Shown here: piece by piece, positions 17,932 to 30,726 of the stretch | Numbering within the stretch: position 1 is the stretch's first letter | How the letters are laid out: each line of letters opens with the position of its first letter | UHGV virus genome: UHGV-0853564 | Direction: 5' to 3' (one strand) | DNA: 43,023 nucleotides | From: a virus | Translations under genes and position numbers: made by a program | Notes under the pieces: model-generated | What the model saw: only the letters and a program-made list of their open reading frames with translations | The model's database searches: none | What the model was told of the DNA's origin: nothing

Positions 17932-18136
17932 ACATATCCTTTGGATTGTAGTCGAACTCGTGTTCGCACTTGTTCAGGTTGAAGCGGTTAATAAGTTCAC
18001 GGCGTGTCTCATAAAGCGACTCAACCATTTGCTCGGCTACCGCGATTTTAGTATTCAGGACATGCATCACGTGGCTGATGTCTACGCCACCGTTAACAGC
18101 CTCCACCATCATCTTTTCGTATTCGTTATTGGTCAT
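17891..18136 (-). CDS. hypothetical protein with C-terminal Cys cluster (zinc-ribbon-like)
   Basis: CEHEF...CGQCVKCG motif. Confidence 0.4.
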   Translation of the reverse strand: MTNNEYEKMMVEAVNGGVDISHVMHVLNTKIAVAEQMVESLYETRRELINRFNLNKCEHEFDYNPKDMCGQCVKCGVQRHA

Positions 18137-18308
18137 TGTTCACCACCTCAAATACGCACTCACTTTCGAAGCCTTCAACTTCAAGAGAGTTATTGAGGTA
18201 GAAGGCTCCAACTCGATACCCATAACTCGGTAGCGCGACGGCTTCGTACACCCCGTTTAGGGTAAGCTCGGCCCAATCACCCTTAAGAAACACACATTTT
18301 ACTTTCAT
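18126..18308 (-). CDS. hypothetical protein
   Basis: ATG at 18308..18306 inside conserved GGAGAGAAGAAATGA junction. Confidence 0.45.
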   Translation of the reverse strand: MKVKCVFLKGDWAELTLNGVYEAVALPSYGYRVGAFYLNNSLEVEGFESECVFEVVNNDQ

Positions 18309-18460
18309 TTCTTCTCTCCCCACATGCGATTGAGATACTTGTTCTTGTCCGGCCCCGGGAAACTGTTGCGTTTCATCAGTTCCTCGCGTGTCGGGAACGG
18401 GGTGTGATTAACCTTACGTCCTACTCGTAATGGTTGGCTCACTGGACCTTGTTCGCTCAT
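18305..18460 (-). CDS. hypothetical protein ending GEKK
   Basis: Start and stop both lie in copies of the conserved junction. Confidence 0.45.
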   Translation of the reverse strand: MSEQGPVSQPLRVGRKVNHTPFPTREELMKRNSFPGPDKNKYLNRMWGEKK

Positions 18461-18651
18461 TTCTTCTCTCCTGCGAGTTCCATATTGAATACAATACGAA
18501 CGTTTTCCAGGGGCGTAGTACCTACTAGCTTTGCCGCGTAAGCCCCCGCATCTCCAGATTGGTGAAACTGGCCGCAATCAACATACTCATCCCCGTTGAA
18601 AAAAGAAACAACGAAACAACCTTTACCAACTTCCGTAACTATATTTTTCAT
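18457..18651 (-). CDS. hypothetical protein ending GEKK
   Basis: As above. Confidence 0.45.
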   Translation of the reverse strand: MKNIVTEVGKGCFVVSFFNGDEYVDCGQFHQSGDAGAYAAKLVGTTPLENVRIVFNMELAGEKK

Positions 18652-18797
18652 TTCTTCTCTCCTGCATAAGCTGCTTTAAGTGTCTGCATCGCGGCGAACC
18701 AGAACGCAGCCGCGGGGATGCTGTTGCTCAGGTTACTAACGGCGATGCGTGCCATCAGCTGTGCGTCTTTGAATGCTTCGATGTCTGTGATTTTCAT
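18648..18797 (-). CDS. hypothetical protein ending GEKK (49 aa)
   Basis: ATG at 18797..18795; below track cutoff. Confidence 0.35.
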   Translation of the reverse strand: MKITDIEAFKDAQLMARIAVSNLSNSIPAAAFWFAAMQTLKAAYAGEKK

Positions 18798-18881
18798 CTT
18801 TTCTACTCCGTTCTCGTTGTCGGTGGAGTAAATATAGTAGGGTCGCAGGTAATAGTCAACTAGTCATCGCAGATGATAGAT

Positions 18882-18913
18882 AAAAAAAATCCCGGCTGGG
18901 TCAGGGCCGGGAT
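18882..18913 (-). terminator. rho-independent terminator downstream of lysis cassette
   Basis: 8-bp stem atcccggc/gccgggat followed by U8 on the minus transcript. Confidence 0.6.
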
Positions 18914-19129
18914 AAAACTGGAGAGCAGAGGGGTGGAACATTAGGTTGGTGAAACCAGTATGAAGCTGCCGTTGTTGGGTGTCAACCCTCGCCGTAGCCG
19001 ACAGACTCGTCGATATCGTCCCGCGACTTAACCGGGTTGGTAAACTCTTGTAACGCCATAGTGGCCTCCAATAAGCAAATACGAAAAACTTGGCATGAAC
19101 AGAATACTAAACGCCTTCGTATTCGTCCA

Positions 19130-19615
19130 TCATTTTACTGCACGTCCGATAGCCTCCGCCTCCTGCCACGGTCTACCGTCGAACAGCGCCAGACGGCCTG
19201 CTGTACGGCGGCGCAGGCCGAGTAACGGTTTGCCGTTCTGGTTGATGAACAGCGCCAGTTTAGCCCGCAGAGTCGCGGTATCACCAGAACGCAGCGCCCT
19301 ACCCGTGCCGGTAGTAGCTGCAATCACACCTGCGCCAGCGTTGTAGACCAGGTCGCACACTGCATCGAACTGTGCCTGTGTCATCGAATGGTGTGCCGCC
19401 GCATCGACAGCGGCTACAGCCTTAGCCATGTCACGGTTCAGTAACAGGAGGCCCTGCCCCGGTGTGATGGTCTTACCGGGTGTTACGTCTGGGCCGTAGT
19501 GACCGTACCCGATAGTCAGGTACTTTTCGTTCGGCGTAGCGCGATACGCAGTTCCGCGGAATCCCTCGAATGCAGCGGTGAAATGCAACCCATTATCTGA
19601 AATGTTTCGAGACAC
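19130..19615 (-). CDS. endolysin (phage lysozyme-like)
   Basis: Motif FEGFRGTAY...YLTIGYGH resembles T4-lysozyme-family active-site region; GTG at 19615 with GGAGGA RBS preferred over TTG track start 19666. Confidence 0.6.
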   Translation of the reverse strand: MSRNISDNGLHFTAAFEGFRGTAYRATPNEKYLTIGYGHYGPDVTPGKTITPGQGLLLLNRDMAKAVAAVDAAAHHSMTQAQFDAVCDLVYNAGAGVIAATTGTGRALRSGDTATLRAKLALFINQNGKPLLGLRRRTAGRLALFDGRPWQEAEAIGRAVK

Positions 19616-19865
19616 GCTTATGTCCTCCGTATGACAGCCACGCCTGGCGAATCTGGCGCAGCGCAACTAATGTGATTAATGTCTCAGGCAACGTTGGTGA
19701 CATGCTGCCCTGTAACAGGTGGATACATCCGGCGGCACAGACAATAGCGGTCAGGATATAGAGCACCCGACCAAATAGTCCGTCGTCTATACTCGGATGA
19801 TACACGTTAAACAGCGATGTGCCTCCGATTGCCAGCATACCGCCGAACCAGAATAACTCATTCAT
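19593..19865 (-). CDS. holin-like membrane protein (second of pair)
   Basis: Internal ATG at 19865 overlapping upstream stop; ~90 aa with hydrophobic segments. Confidence 0.5.
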   Translation of the reverse strand: MNELFWFGGMLAIGGTSLFNVYHPSIDDGLFGRVLYILTAIVCAAGCIHLLQGSMSPTLPETLITLVALRQIRQAWLSYGGHKRVSKHFR

Positions 19866-20166
19866 CCGGGCCTCCTCGACGTGCGATGTATTCTCCGGCG
19901 ACGATGCCAGAAAGGCGGGAATAGATAGGCATCCAGAGAATGGCAATGATGAAGCCCAGGCCGGCGATTTCACGGTCACCCGTGATGCCGAACCATTGAG
20001 CTGCCAGAGGTGCACCAAATACGGCGCAGGTGAAGCCGGTTGCGATAAAGCAGAAGCCGTCAACAGGGCCGGAAATGACGGTCTTATGTTGCCGTAGTCC
20101 GATTACCCCTCCGGCTAGCGCGGCAGCCAGAAGCCACCCCGTCACTGTTTCAGTAAATTTATCCAA
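19858..20166 (-). CDS. holin-like membrane protein
   Basis: 102 aa with multiple hydrophobic TM-like segments, immediately upstream of endolysin. Confidence 0.55.
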   Translation of the reverse strand: MDKFTETVTGWLLAAALAGGVIGLRQHKTVISGPVDGFCFIATGFTCAVFGAPLAAQWFGITGDREIAGLGFIIAILWMPIYSRLSGIVAGEYIARRGGPDE

Positions 20167-20766: not shown

Positions 20767-21075
20767 TCAAAGCACCTTTATTGTAAAAGCACCTTTATTG
20801 TAAAAGCACCATTCGTGCTCGCAGTCCCGAGTGTCTTCTTTACGGCAACCGGATTGCTCGGCGGCGCACTCTCCGTTGCGTAGAACTTTGTAAGGCTCAA
20901 TATTCCCCGTAGCCTTAACCAAGGCGACATGCAAATCCCTAAGCTGCGCCCGCGCATCACGTAACTGGTTTTTAAGTGACTGCACCTCATGCGCCAAGTC
21001 TTCGCACTGGTTGTTATTTACCTGCTGCCGTAGTTGGTCAATCAGGTACTCGAATACTTCGTTTTTGTTACTCAT
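20767..21075 (-). CDS. hypothetical protein (coiled-coil, Cys-rich C-terminus)
   Basis: ORF track; 3' end contains 17-bp tandem repeat. Confidence 0.45.
   Translation of the reverse strand: MSNKNEVFEYLIDQLRQQVNNNQCEDLAHEVQSLKNQLRDARAQLRDLHVALVKATGNIEPYKVLRNGECAAEQSGCRKEDTRDCEHEWCFYNKGAFTIKVL
20771..20810. repeat. 17-bp tandem repeat agcacctttattgtaaa x2.3
   Basis: Two exact copies plus a partial third at the 3' end of ORF 20767..21075. Confidence 0.8.
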
Positions 21076-21252
21076 CTTCTGTCTCTCCTCTCACTAGAAC
21101 TAATGGATAGGTACAATACTTGCGGTTGTTATCCCGTTTGAAATATAAAAATCGAGTGCATCACAAGCCCAATCTAGTCTGCACCATCCGCTCAATTTTT
21201 TATCCCCATCAATAATTATGTATTTTTCGTATCCCATATTGACACCTCTCGT

Positions 21253-21525: not shown

Positions 21526-21664
21526 AGTCAATTACCCCGAACTCATTGATGATTTGCGCCTTGTAGAAGTTGCCGTTTGACGCCAGGTGGTACGCCTGTG
21601 CCATAGACATCTCACGGTAAGTTGCGGTGCTGTTTTCGAATTCCATAACCATCAAAGTAACCAT
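21515..21664 (-). CDS. small hypothetical protein (49 aa)
   Basis: ATG at 21664 preceded by GAGGAG RBS and conserved leader; below track cutoff. Confidence 0.3.
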   Translation of the reverse strand: MVTLMVMEFENSTATYREMSMAQAYHLASNGNFYKAQIINEFGVIDYEF

Positions 21665-21691
21665 CTTCTGTCTCTCCTCTCGTTCGTGTAA

Positions 21692-26632: not shown

Positions 26633-26664
26633 CAGCACATACCAAACGAGAGGAGAGAAACAAA

Positions 26665-26814
26665 ATGACCAATAACCGCAAAGCAAAAATTCTGTTAGGA
26701 CTTGATATTGCCTTTGGGACTAAAGAAACAGCGCGCTACCGGGTAAGCAACAACCGCGTTGGCTTCTTCGACAAGTCCACTGGCCAGTTAGTTAAAACCG
26801 TTAAATATAAATAA
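26665..26814 (+). CDS. small basic protein (49 aa), paralog of 28181..28339
   Basis: GAGAGGAGAG RBS; N-terminus MTNNRKAKILL and RVSNN motif shared with the second copy. Confidence 0.45.
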   Translation: MTNNRKAKILLGLDIAFGTKETARYRVSNNRVGFFDKSTGQLVKTVKYK

Positions 26815-28184: not shown

Positions 28185-28339
28185 CGAACCGTAAAGCGCG
28201 TTTTCTATTTGTTAAACGTAACCAGCCTTTTCGAGTAAGCAACTCGACTTGGCTGATCATCTTCAACCGTAGCGGCGACACGTGCGCCTATAAACGCAAA
28301 ACACGTAAAGTTAAATGGGGCGGGAGTTTAAGAGCATGA
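28181..28339 (+). CDS. small basic protein (52 aa), paralog of 26665..26814
   Basis: MTNRKARFLFV...RVSNS; stop overlaps start of nuclease gene. Confidence 0.4.
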   Translation: MTNRKARFLFVKRNQPFRVSNSTWLIIFNRSGDTCAYKRKTRKVKWGGSLRA

Positions 28340-29784
28340 AACTAAAAGAACGCGGCGGCAATAATGATGTACACGCTTTACTGTCGCCGTCTGGTGCTAA
28401 AAAGTGGCTTACATGCAGTGCATCACTGGCCTGCGAGAAAGATATTCCTAACACGTCAGGTAAAGCCGCCGTATTAGGCACGGCTATGCACACGATAGCG
28501 GAGATGCACCTTAACCAGTATATCAAAGGCACTGCGTTGCCGTTAGAGCGTGAGGTCGGCGCTTACGTGCTGGACGAGGGTAAAGGCCAGATTAAGGCGC
28601 TAAACAGTCCGATGAAAGGCGCGGTACTGATTACGGCTGACATGATTGAGCAGGTGCGCAAGTACACCGACTACTGCAAAGAGATTATCGATGTAGCGAC
28701 TTACACCAAACTGGAAATGCGTGTCAATCTTACCGAGGTATTGCATCCTGGGTATATGTTTCGTGTTGCTGGTGAGCAGGGTGATGGCAACGCCGGGGTT
28801 TTTAAAACTGTGGAGACATTCGGAACAGCCGACTTAGTGGCGGTTATAGAAGGCTTTACGGGTGAAAGTAACTCAGCGATGCTCATTATCGGCGACCTGA
28901 AAACTGGGCGGCATCGTGTCGAAGCGAAAGAAAACAAACAGCTTATGCTTTACGCGCTCGGTGTTTATCGCCGACTCAAGAGGCGTTATAACATCACAGT
29001 AGTGCGCCTGGTTATCTTCCAGCCGTATGCTGGCGGAGCGTCTGAGTGGGACATCTCAGTTGAAGGTCTGGAACTGTTCGCCAAGTTCGCACAGAAACGT
29101 GCACTGTTGGCACTCGATGCGTATTTCCGTGGCAAGAAGAACCTGAAAGCGTCGGACTTCAAACCGTCGGTAGATGGTTGTCAGTGGTGTCGGTTCTCTG
29201 AACAGTGCGCCGCGCGTACAAAGACGGTTAACGCTGTGTTGGCGGAAGAACTGGAGGACAATACAGATGTATATCGTACAGCCGTAGAACGTGTGGCTAA
29301 GTTCTGCAACGACGCGGACTATATGAGCGTTTGGGAGGATGTTCAGCCGAGTGATATTCTTAAGTTGCTACCTGACGACACAGATTTACCTAAGAAGCCA
29401 GTGAGAGATGACGACTTTGCGCTGGAACTGACACCGGAGCAACTCGTAGCTGAGTATGAGAAGTTGCCGCTGTTGCGCCAGCACATCGACAAGGTCGAGA
29501 AAGCGATGGCTGCCGCGTTGCATTCCGGTAAGAAAGTGCCGGGGTACAAGCTGGTTGAAGGTCGTCCGGGTAATCGTGCGTGGAAGGACGCCGAGGCGGT
29601 ATACGAGAAATATGGTTACAAGCTGACTAAAGAAGTGCTCATGACGCCAACTGAAGCGGTTAAAGTAATACCGGAAGAAGAACTGAAAGACTTTATTACC
29701 CGTAAGCAGGGCGCACCATGTGTCGCAACGGCGGACGACAAACGTCCTGAATGGAATCAGGTAACAGAGGAGGATTTAGAATGA
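28336..29784 (+). CDS. PD-(D/E)XK nuclease with Cys cluster (Cas4/RecB-like fold)
   Basis: N-terminal LLSPSGAKKWLTCSAS, GDLKTGR motif, C-terminal CQWCRFSEQC Cys cluster; GGGAG RBS before ATG 28336 (track start 28315). Confidence 0.6.
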   Translation: MKLKERGGNNDVHALLSPSGAKKWLTCSASLACEKDIPNTSGKAAVLGTAMHTIAEMHLNQYIKGTALPLEREVGAYVLDEGKGQIKALNSPMKGAVLITADMIEQVRKYTDYCKEIIDVATYTKLEMRVNLTEVLHPGYMFRVAGEQGDGNAGVFKTVETFGTADLVAVIEGFTGESNSAMLIIGDLKTGRHRVEAKENKQLMLYALGVYRRLKRRYNITVVRLVIFQPYAGGASEWDISVEGLELFAKFAQKRALLALDAYFRGKKNLKASDFKPSVDGCQWCRFSEQCAARTKTVNAVLAEELEDNTDVYRTAVERVAKFCNDADYMSVWEDVQPSDILKLLPDDTDLPKKPVRDDDFALELTPEQLVAEYEKLPLLRQHIDKVEKAMAAALHSGKKVPGYKLVEGRPGNRAWKDAEAVYEKYGYKLTKEVLMTPTEAVKVIPEEELKDFITRKQGAPCVATADDKRPEWNQVTEEDLE

Positions 29785-30096: not shown

Positions 30097-30726
30097 ATGG
30101 GTATTAAACTGAATCTGCGTAAAGTAAACACTGCTTGGGTTAACGTATTCGAACGTGCTGCCGACTCTGAGGACAAGAAAACCGGTAAACTTATTAAGGG
30201 CAAATATCAGGTTACGGTTCTTATGCAGCCCGACCACCCTCAAATCGACGCGCTTTATGATACCGCGCTGGAAGTTGTAACAGAGGCAATCGGGGCGGCT
30301 GCTGCCGAGAAATGGATGAAGGCCAACTACGGCGTAGACCACCACGCGGACAAATGCTGCGTCCGTGACCTGGCAATGCGCGATAATCCGATTGAGGATT
30401 TTGAAGAGGGTCTGTATTTCCGCGCTACTAACAACCGCCAACCGGTGATTATGACATCTGCTAAAGGTGAAAAACAAACCGAGCCTGATTTCAACATCGA
30501 CGGGCAGGAAGTAGAAGGCGAGCAGGTATATAGCGGGTGTGTGGCTAACGTATCTGTAGAGTTGTGGTGGCACAAAGAATGGAAAAACCTGTGCGCTACC
30601 ATCCTCGGCATCAAGTATGCGGGCGAAGGTAAACGCTTCGGAGGCTCCAGTGTAGTAGCGAGCACCGACGACCTGGAAGACGACGAAGAAGATGAAGCAC
30701 CGCGCCGCGAACGTCGCCGCCGCTAA
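30097..30726 (+). CDS. ssDNA-binding protein-like (phage SSB family) with acidic C-terminal tail
   Basis: N-terminal LRKVNTAWVNVFE pattern typical of a phage SSB family; C-terminal TDDLEDDEEDE acidic tail. Confidence 0.55.
   Translation: MGIKLNLRKVNTAWVNVFERAADSEDKKTGKLIKGKYQVTVLMQPDHPQIDALYDTALEVVTEAIGAAAAEKWMKANYGVDHHADKCCVRDLAMRDNPIEDFEEGLYFRATNNRQPVIMTSAKGEKQTEPDFNIDGQEVEGEQVYSGCVANVSVELWWHKEWKNLCATILGIKYAGEGKRFGGSSVVASTDDLEDDEEDEAPRRERRRR

What the first reader, a model, noticed from the sequence alone, without database searches (positions are those of the whole stretch)
18305..18662. Three identical stop-RBS-start junctions (GGAGAGAAGAAATGA) linking consecutive small genes
The 15-mer occurs exactly three times (18305, 18457, 18648; up to 18 nt identical). 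Each copy encodes the C-terminal G-E-K-K of one protein, its stop, the RBS and the ATG of the next, while the gene bodies are unrelated. A second leader (catcttctgtctctcctctc) is duplicated at ~21074 and ~21664. Such conserved boundaries are candidate recombination linkers for module exchange or a shared translational-coupling signal.
Basis: seen in the sequence. Interest (0 to 1): 0.45.

Follow-up and report, generated by a model that had tools for sequence, protein, structure and literature searches.

The report
Repeated stop-start junction linking swappable phage genes
Three small neighbouring genes of a Kagunavirus phage are joined by the same 15-base stop/ribosome-site/start junction, and related phages swap genes exactly at these junctions; this is a clear example of a known kind of phage mosaic boundary, not a new mechanism.

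Summary
GGAGAGAAGAAATGA occurs exactly three times, on the minus strand, at 18305, 18457 and 18648. Each copy supplies G-E-K-K-stop for one small gene and the GGAG ribosome site, a 7-nt spacer and the ATG for the next. The four gene bodies are unrelated.

The window is a Kagunavirus (Guernseyvirinae) phage. The genes form a small-gene array behind a promoter-like site, downstream of the lysis genes.

In 54 related loci, alignments to the window end at the three junctions in 50, 44 and 47 loci. In 26 loci one junction aligns to both copies that flank gene B. Across relatives the 15-mer ends four unrelated gene families and precedes 14.

A mobile small gene, F10, carries a copy of the local upstream junction in three phage genera.

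Best reading: this is a translational-coupling junction shared by both neighbouring genes, so gene insertion copies it. The resulting direct repeats can then serve deletion and exchange. Coupling and recombination are both inferred, not shown.

The same 15-mer is also a common gene junction in unrelated phages, and most other cassettes lack it on both sides, so it is not a dedicated system. Interest is modest: a new member of a known kind (short conserved boundary sequences).

The parts
18831..18859 (-). Sigma-70-like promoter candidate (TTGACT-17-TATATT) just upstream of gene A; the likely start of the small-gene operon
   Evidence: Consensus scan, 10 of 12 matches. Phage Jersey has an annotated promoter at the equivalent position. 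Function not tested.
18882..18911 (-). Terminator-like hairpin (CCCGGC-9 nt-GCCGGG, then T8) after the endolysin gene; it separates the lysis genes from the small-gene array
   Evidence: Read directly from the sequence. The scan missed it because the loop is 9 nt. Two sub-threshold Rfam sRNA hits overlap it.
18648..18797 (-). Gene A (family F1, 49 aa, ends ..AAYAGEKK*)
   Evidence: ORF. Matches phrog_2180 at E 2e-25. Found in 51 IMG/VR loci.
18648..18662 (-). Junction copy J1: last four codons and stop of A, plus Shine-Dalgarno site, spacer and ATG of B
   Evidence: Nearly invariant at the end of F1 in Kagunavirus-type loci.
18457..18651 (-). Gene B (family F11, 64 aa, ends ..ELAGEKK*); a cassette present in only a few relatives
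   Evidence: ORF. Found in 4 of 50,697 phage records and 17 protein clusters. 17 of 24 differences from L002 are at third codon positions.
18457..18471 (-). Junction copy J2: end and stop of B, plus Shine-Dalgarno site, spacer and ATG of C; identical to J1 over 18 nt
18305..18460 (-). Gene C (family F2, DUF2737, 51 aa, ends ..NRMWGEKK*)
   Evidence: Pfam PF10930, 39 bits against a cut-off of 25. phrog_4684 at E 3e-33.
18305..18319 (-). Junction copy J3: a minority version of the 3' end of the DUF2737 gene, plus Shine-Dalgarno site, spacer and ATG of D
18126..18308 (-). Gene D (family F18, 60 aa); a cassette seen in only one other locus (phiWAO78-1)
   Evidence: ORF.
21662..21681 (-). Second repeated initiation region, copy 1 (GAGAGGAGAGACAGAAGATG), before a 49-aa ORF
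   Evidence: Conserved in phage K1G with one base changed and a different gene downstream.
21073..21092 (-). Second repeated initiation region, copy 2, before a 102-aa ORF
   Evidence: Many relatives' alignments end at about 21074-21080.
26648..26667 (+). Diverged third copy of the second initiation region (GAGAGGAGAGAAACAAAATG) before a 49-codon ORF

Best explanation
The 15-mer is a dual-purpose gene junction in a promoter-proximal operon of small accessory genes of a Kagunavirus phage. It encodes the last four residues and the UGA stop of the upstream gene. It also provides the Shine-Dalgarno site (GGAG), a purine-rich unstructured 7-nt spacer and the overlapping AUG of the next gene. Ribosomes finishing one gene can therefore start the next (inferred from anatomy). 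Both neighbours depend on the junction. A viable insertion between them therefore tends to keep one copy on each side, and a viable gene replacement tends to leave it intact. This makes the junction a conserved island between variable genes, and it gets copied through the array. The three copies in this window are most likely identical by descent, through recombination, rather than by convergence. Once present as 15-18-nt direct repeats 150-190 nt apart, the copies can serve short-homology deletion or exchange of the gene between them. The phage's own exonuclease and gp2.5-like annealing protein could carry this out (inferred).
For: Anatomy: ATGA overlap, GGAG 7 nt before the ATG, all four ORFs on the same strand. 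The junction is predicted unpaired and the folds are no more stable than shuffles.

Operon context: a promoter-like site lies upstream of gene A, and Jersey has an annotated promoter at the matching position.

Breakpoints: alignment ends fall on J3, J2 and J1 in 50, 44 and 47 of 54 related loci. In 26 loci a single junction aligns to both J1 and J2.

Promiscuity: in the array the exact 15-mer occurs 50 times. It ends 4 unrelated families (F1, F2, F10, F11) and precedes 13, plus one more in L004. The same array uses 38 different ATGA-junction 15-mers, so coupling alone does not force this sequence.

Co-variation: cassette F10 carries the local upstream tail in three backgrounds.
- Kagunavirus: GCAGGAGAGAAGAAATGA on both sides.
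- Jerseyvirus SETP13: GAGAACAAAAATGA on both sides.
- Shuimuvirus and Skatevirus: GAAACAAAATGA on both sides.
F10 has other tails in Av-05 and in the slot after DUF2737 in RP180.

Gene B in distant relatives sits between F1 and DUF2737 without repeats (..ELAGNNHV*), so the duplicated junction arose within Kagunavirus.

The J version of the DUF2737 tail is followed by a gene other than F3 in 5 of 6 loci, against 9 of 48 for other versions (Fisher p = 0.003; the loci are not independent).

An unrelated IMG/VR contig (L083) has a 72-aa gene flanked by 20 identical nt that contain the same 15-mer.

The phage encodes an exonuclease (phrog_69) and a gp2.5-like annealing protein (phrog_112).
Against: No experiment shows coupling or recombination at the junction.

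Almost every gene boundary in this region is a breakpoint (17759, 17898, 17970, 18124, 18800, 18946, 19133), so the junctions are not uniquely recombinogenic.

Only F10 and F11 (and F22 with 2 mismatches, and F19 with a 9-nt partial repeat) carry the junction on both sides. F7, F9, F12, F17, F18, F20, F23 and F25 do not.

J1 is not more conserved than the rest of gene A.

The exact 15-mer is a frequent junction in unrelated phages. Convergence on a good initiation site therefore contributes.

Fifteen to 18 nt is short for RecA-type recombination.
Confidence: 0.65

Rival explanations
1. Pure convergence: the three copies are identical only because GGAG, a purine-rich spacer and ATGA make a near-optimal initiation and coupling site. 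The junction plays no part in recombination. Breakpoints sit there only because selection removes recombinants that damage either gene.
For: GGAGAG is a preferred start-site core in this window, with 7 of its 14 occurrences preceding ORFs. All gene boundaries nearby are breakpoints. J1 is no more conserved than the body of gene A.
Against: Identity extends to 17-18 nt, including positions with no Shine-Dalgarno role. The same array uses 38 different ATGA junctions. The F10 tail changes together with the local upstream tail in three genera. Gene B has a different tail in distant relatives.
Confidence: 0.2
2. Dedicated cassette mobility: the junctions act as attachment-like sites. Single promoterless genes excise as mini-circles by recombination between flanking copies and re-insert at any other copy, as reported for PeSL mini-circles in T4-type phages; in effect an integron-like array without an integrase.
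For: Gene B and F10 are flanked by identical copies. F10 and F12 occupy two different slots. The array is promoterless behind a single promoter-like site. PeSL mini-circles are a precedent (PMC2839356). An unrelated contig shows the same arrangement.
Against: Most cassettes lack the repeat on one side. When F10 sits in the second slot it has lost the tail. No site-specific recombinase was identified among the proteins scanned. The repeat has no hairpin or inverted repeat.
Confidence: 0.08
3. Shared regulatory operator: the identical initiation regions are bound by one translational repressor or small RNA (as T4 RegA binds several early start regions), which co-regulates genes B, C and D.
For: Three identical start regions lie in one operon. 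A second family of identical start regions exists.
Against: Across relatives the DUF2737 gene is preceded by at least 8 different leaders, and the 15-mer precedes 14 unrelated genes, so it is not tied to particular genes. There is no Rfam match and no structure. No candidate repressor was identified.
Confidence: 0.04
4. The shared G-E-K-K C-terminal peptide is itself selected at the protein level, for example for termination efficiency, stability or an interaction.
For: Three or four unrelated proteins end in the same residues. All versions of the DUF2737 tail are basic.
Against: Identity is at the nucleotide level, including synonymous sites. The same proteins carry quite different tails in other contexts: F10 ends ..VGGVESD or ..YHSDAA, and F11 ends ..AGNNHV.
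Confidence: 0.03

Closest known systems
Short conserved boundary ('linker') sequences at mosaic joints of phage genomes (modular-evolution hypothesis for lambdoid phages; summarised in PMC3029335)
   Same: A short sequence is conserved between genomes at the edge of exchangeable genes. Alternative, unrelated genes lie beside it. Insertions and deletions are bounded by two copies.
   Different: Here the sequence is not intergenic. It lies inside coding sequence and is at once the C-terminal codons, the stop, the ribosome site and the start. It is only 15-18 nt long, and most cassettes in the array do not carry it on both sides.
[quoted passage not shown]
   Same: A repeated expression signal flanks small genes of unknown function in a hypervariable region, and recombination between copies explains gains, losses and replacements.
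   Different: PeSLs are transcription signals (a promoter plus a terminator hairpin) and have been shown to form mini-circles. This junction is a translation signal with no promoter or hairpin, and nothing about it has been shown experimentally.
Translational coupling through overlapping stop-start codons (AUGA/UGAUG) in bacterial and phage operons (textbook knowledge; recalled, not tested here)
   Same: A 4-nt ATGA overlap with a Shine-Dalgarno site inside the end of the upstream gene.
   Different: The unusual feature is not the coupling. It is that the identical 15-18 nt are reused at three consecutive junctions and at the ends of unrelated genes.
Deletion between short direct repeats in phage T7 (classical genetics; recalled from memory, not checked in the paper library)
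   Same: Direct repeats of about 10-20 bp a few hundred bp apart, in a phage with a gp2.5-type annealing protein and an exonuclease, are expected to be prone to deletion.
   Different: No deletion frequencies are known for this phage. The evidence here is comparative only.

Membership tests
Overlapping stop-start translational-coupling junction | Consecutive same-strand ORFs overlap by ATGA | tested here: met
   A/B, B/C and C/D each overlap by 4 nt.
Overlapping stop-start translational-coupling junction | Shine-Dalgarno-like sequence 5-10 nt upstream of the downstream ATG, inside the upstream ORF | tested here: met
   GGAG with a 7-nt spacer in all three copies.
Overlapping stop-start translational-coupling junction | Both ORFs are real genes | tested here: met
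   A matches phrog_2180 and C matches DUF2737/phrog_4684. B has 17 homologous clusters and a third-codon-position bias in its differences. D is conserved in one other phage only, which is weaker support.
Overlapping stop-start translational-coupling junction | Downstream translation depends on upstream translation | not testable with these tools
   Needs reporter assays or ribosome profiling.
Short conserved boundary (linker) sequences at phage mosaic joints | The sequence is conserved among related genomes at a module edge | tested here: met
   42 of 55 loci carry at least one exact copy; 50 occurrences in the array.
Short conserved boundary (linker) sequences at phage mosaic joints | Homology breakpoints coincide with the sequence | tested here: met
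   Alignment ends fall on the three copies in 50, 44 and 47 of 54 loci. Other gene boundaries are also breakpoints.
Short conserved boundary (linker) sequences at phage mosaic joints | The same sequence lies on both sides of exchangeable modules | tested here: inconclusive
   True for F10, F11 and gene C in this window; F22 is close with 2 mismatches. Not true for F7, F9, F12, F17, F18, F20, F23 and F25.
Short conserved boundary (linker) sequences at phage mosaic joints | Crossovers occur within the sequence by homologous recombination | not testable with these tools
   Inferred only. 26 loci show an insertion or deletion whose ends are the two copies.
PeSL-type regulatory cassettes | Composite of a sigma-70 promoter and a stem-loop terminator | tested here: not met
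   No promoter or terminator match at the junctions; the junctions are predicted unpaired.
PeSL-type regulatory cassettes | Formation of mini-circles by recombination between copies | not testable with these tools
   Needs outward-facing PCR on phage DNA.
Integron-like cassette array | attC-like imperfect inverted repeat at each cassette end, and an adjacent integrase | tested here: not met
   The repeat is a 15-nt purine-rich run with no inverted repeat. No recombinase was found among the proteins scanned, but not every ORF of the window was scanned.
DUF2737 (PF10930), for gene C | Score above the Pfam gathering threshold | tested here: met
   39 bits against a cut-off of 25.

The most novel reading that the evidence does not exclude
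Translation-initiation junctions of this type may act as portable attachment sequences. Promoterless single-gene cassettes bounded by two copies would loop out as mini-circles or be exchanged between co-infecting phages, even across genera, through the phage's exonuclease and annealing proteins, and re-insert at any matching junction. That would be an integrase-free, integron-like way of trading small accessory genes. The F10 gene, flanked by local junction copies in three genera, and the unrelated contig L083 would be further instances.
Probability: 0.1. Interest if true: 0.65.

Novelty: new member of a known kind. Interest (0 to 1): 0.3.

Why it matters
Phage genomes are mosaics, and it is still debated whether the joints arise at short conserved sequences or by random illegitimate recombination followed by selection. 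This locus is a compact natural test case. A 15-18-nt element that both neighbouring genes need is copied when genes are inserted and then brackets the genes that come and go. If the repeats do drive deletion and exchange, this would explain how arrays of small accessory genes turn over quickly without losing expression. It also matters for engineering therapeutic Kagunavirus and Jerseyvirus phages, because inserts placed between such repeats may be unstable. The underlying concepts (translational coupling and boundary sequences) are established, so the gain is incremental.

Tried and rejected
It was useless for specificity but showed that the 15-mer is a generic junction.
2. I tested whether J1 is under extra constraint compared with the rest of gene A. 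It is not visibly so.
3. RNA structure around the junctions: no fold is more stable than shuffles, so a structured regulatory element was rejected.
4. Rfam: nothing above threshold. The two weak hits are the terminator hairpin.
5. Tandem-repeat search: nothing relevant.
6. I looked for an origin of gene B outside this phage group. There are only 17 close clusters, all in the same slot.
7. I tested whether the IME207 gene upstream of F10 is a homologue of gene A, which would make A-F10 an inherited pair. No similarity was found.
8. Literature searches for a prior description in Guernseyvirinae found none. One candidate preprint was irrelevant.
9. The integron-like and PeSL-like classifications were rejected on anatomy.
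10. One PHROGs call failed because of wrong coordinates.

Full report
**1. Observation**

GGAGAGAAGAAATGA occurs exactly three times in the 43,023-nt window. All copies are on the minus strand, at 18305-18319, 18457-18471 and 18648-18662. Allowing two mismatches adds nothing. Shuffles give 0.04 matches on average and never three.

The copies at 18648 (J1) and 18457 (J2) are identical over 18 nt (GCAGGAGAGAAGAAATGA). J1 and the copy at 18305 (J3) share 17 nt.

Read on the minus strand, each copy is GGA GAG AAG AAA TGA. That is the last four codons (G-E-K-K) and the stop of one ORF. The ATG of the next ORF overlaps the stop, and GGAG lies 7 nt before it.

The four ORFs are:
- A: 18797..18648, 49 aa.
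- B: 18651..18457, 64 aa.
- C: 18460..18305, 51 aa.
- D: 18308..18126, 60 aa.

BLASTP finds only the 4-5 residue tail in common between them.

**2. Context**

The window is a Kagunavirus (Guernseyvirinae; phage K1G group) with no identical record. Matches in the phage collection are 88-93% identical and always broken into pieces.

On the minus strand the order is:
- holins and endolysin (19130-20166);
- a terminator-like hairpin (18882-18911, read by eye);
- a promoter-like site, TTGACT-17-TATATT (18859..18831; Jersey has an annotated promoter at the matching place);
- the small genes A, B, C and D, followed by further small genes.

Gene A matches phrog_2180. Gene C is a DUF2737 protein (39 bits against a cut-off of 25). 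B and D match no family. B is probably a real gene: it has 17 homologous protein clusters, and 17 of its 24 differences from the copy in L002 are at third codon positions.

**3. Comparative test**

I collected 51 IMG/VR loci that encode a relative of gene A and 3 GenBank loci. I then walked along the gene chain in each.

- Gene A almost always ends with the 18-mer.
- The next gene is either DUF2737 directly (the most common case) or one of at least eight unrelated cassettes: F7, F9, F10, F11 (which is gene B), F12, F19, F20 and F22.
- BLASTN of the window against the 54 loci ends at J3, J2 and J1 in 50, 44 and 47 loci.
- In 26 loci the relative's single junction aligns to both J1 and J2. This is the signature of an insertion or deletion bounded by a direct repeat.
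- Across the array the exact 15-mer occurs 50 times. It ends four unrelated families (F1, F2, F10, F11) and precedes 13, plus another in L004.

**4. Why the copies are identical**

Coupling alone does not force this sequence, because the same array uses 38 different ATGA-junction 15-mers. The clearest evidence is cassette F10.

- In Kagunaviruses both of its flanks are GCAGGAGAGAAGAAATGA.
- In Jerseyvirus SETP13 gene A ends GCAGGAGAACAAAAATGA and F10 ends GCAAGAGAACAAAAATGA.
- In Shuimuvirus IME207 and a Skatevirus both flanks end GAAACAAAATGA. This holds even where the upstream gene is a different one (L190).
- In Av-05, and in the slot after DUF2737 in RP180, F10 has quite different tails.

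So the last 12-18 nt of the cassette follow the local junction, not the cassette. Some F10 versions have Shuimuvirus-type ends and a Kagunavirus-type middle.

Gene B tells the same story. In more distant relatives it sits between A and DUF2737 but ends ..ELAGNNHV*, and A ends ..AAYKGK*, with no repeat. The duplicated junction therefore arose within Kagunavirus. It can be explained by one crossover at the ATGA and another at the GCNGG shared by the ..ELAG and ..AYAG codons.

J3 is a minority version of the DUF2737 3' end. It is scattered over the DUF2737 tree. It is followed by a gene other than F3 in 5 of 6 loci, against 9 of 48 for other versions (p = 0.003, but the loci are not independent).

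An unrelated contig (L083) has no match in the phage collection. It carries a 72-aa gene flanked by 20 identical nt that contain the same 15-mer.

**5. Mechanism**

What is shown: the anatomy of the junction, the breakpoints, and the co-variation of cassette tails with local junctions.

What is inferred:
- (a) Ribosomes terminating at UGA re-initiate at the overlapping AUG, helped by GGAG and an unstructured purine-rich spacer. The folds show the junction unpaired, with z-scores of +1.1, -1.1 and +1.4.
- (b) The junction serves both neighbours, so viable insertions duplicate it and viable replacements spare it.
- (c) The resulting direct repeats can then mediate deletion or exchange. The phage encodes an exonuclease (28315-29784) and a gp2.5-like annealing protein (30097-30726).

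**6. Limits**

- Nearly every gene boundary in this region is a breakpoint.
- Most cassettes do not have the junction on both sides.
- J1 is no more conserved than the rest of gene A.
- The exact 15-mer is a common junction in unrelated phages.
- GGAGAG is a favoured start-site core in this genome.

Selection for a good initiation site therefore explains part of the sequence. Whether the junction causes recombination or merely survives it remains open. A dedicated mobility system is unlikely.

**7. Comparison with known systems**

The closest concepts are:
- short conserved boundary sequences at phage mosaic joints (PMC3029335);
- PeSL regulatory cassettes of T4-type phages (PMC2839356);
- ordinary ATGA translational coupling.

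The junction is not a PeSL, because it has no promoter or hairpin. It is not integron-like either. I found no description of it for Guernseyvirinae.

**8. Verdict**

It is a new member of a known kind and of modest interest.

Noticed in passing
window 20769-20802: An exact 17-bp tandem duplication (AAAGCACCTTTATTGTA x2) lies at the 3' end of the minus-strand ORF 20767-21075. The second copy is read in a different frame (..YNKGAFTIKVL*), so it looks like a recent frameshifting duplication.
   Followed up: no
window 21073-21092, 21662-21681, 26648-26667: A second family of near-identical initiation regions (GAGAGGAGAGA-N-ATG). The copy at 21662 follows a promoter-like stretch. Phage K1G keeps that copy, with one base changed, before a different gene, and relatives' alignments end near 21074-21080. 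It also appears to mark a mosaic boundary.
   Followed up: partly
L083 5597-5826 (IMGVR_UViG_3300037797_000040): A phage contig with no match in the phage collection has a 72-aa gene flanked by 20 identical nt (ACAGGAGAGAAGAAATGAA). Both flanking proteins end TGEKK. This is an independent instance of a junction-flanked small gene.
   Followed up: partly
P0043, P0046 (F10 homologues); L190: These F10 versions have Shuimuvirus-type N- and C-terminal ends and a Kagunavirus-type middle. This suggests homologous exchange inside this small gene between phage genera.
   Followed up: partly
L033 (about 2640-2800) and L184 692-862: Apparent pseudogenes in relatives. The DUF2737 gene of L033 has a stop at codon 3 (ATGAGCTAA). 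The F10 gene of Salmonella phage BUCT_XGG_PSM_3377 has a premature stop 13 codons before its normal end.
   Followed up: no
window 18882-18940: A terminator-like hairpin after the endolysin gene gives two sub-threshold Rfam sRNA hits (RF02278 at 25 bits, RF02837 at 20 bits). These are probably just hairpin resemblance.
   Followed up: partly
window 28315-29784 and 30097-30726: The phage encodes a PD-(D/E)XK/DUF2800 exonuclease and a gp2.5-like single-strand binding and annealing protein. Together they form a recombination module that could act on short homologies.
   Followed up: partly
L011, L017, L020, L023 and Salmonella-phage loci: Other junction types are also shared by unrelated genes upstream of DUF2737. 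GAGGTTAAGTGATGA ends both F12 and the L023 version of F9. TGGGAGGTnnnnGAATGA ends both F7 and the Salmonella-phage F9. Retention of the initiation region when the upstream gene is swapped therefore seems general in this array.
   Followed up: partly
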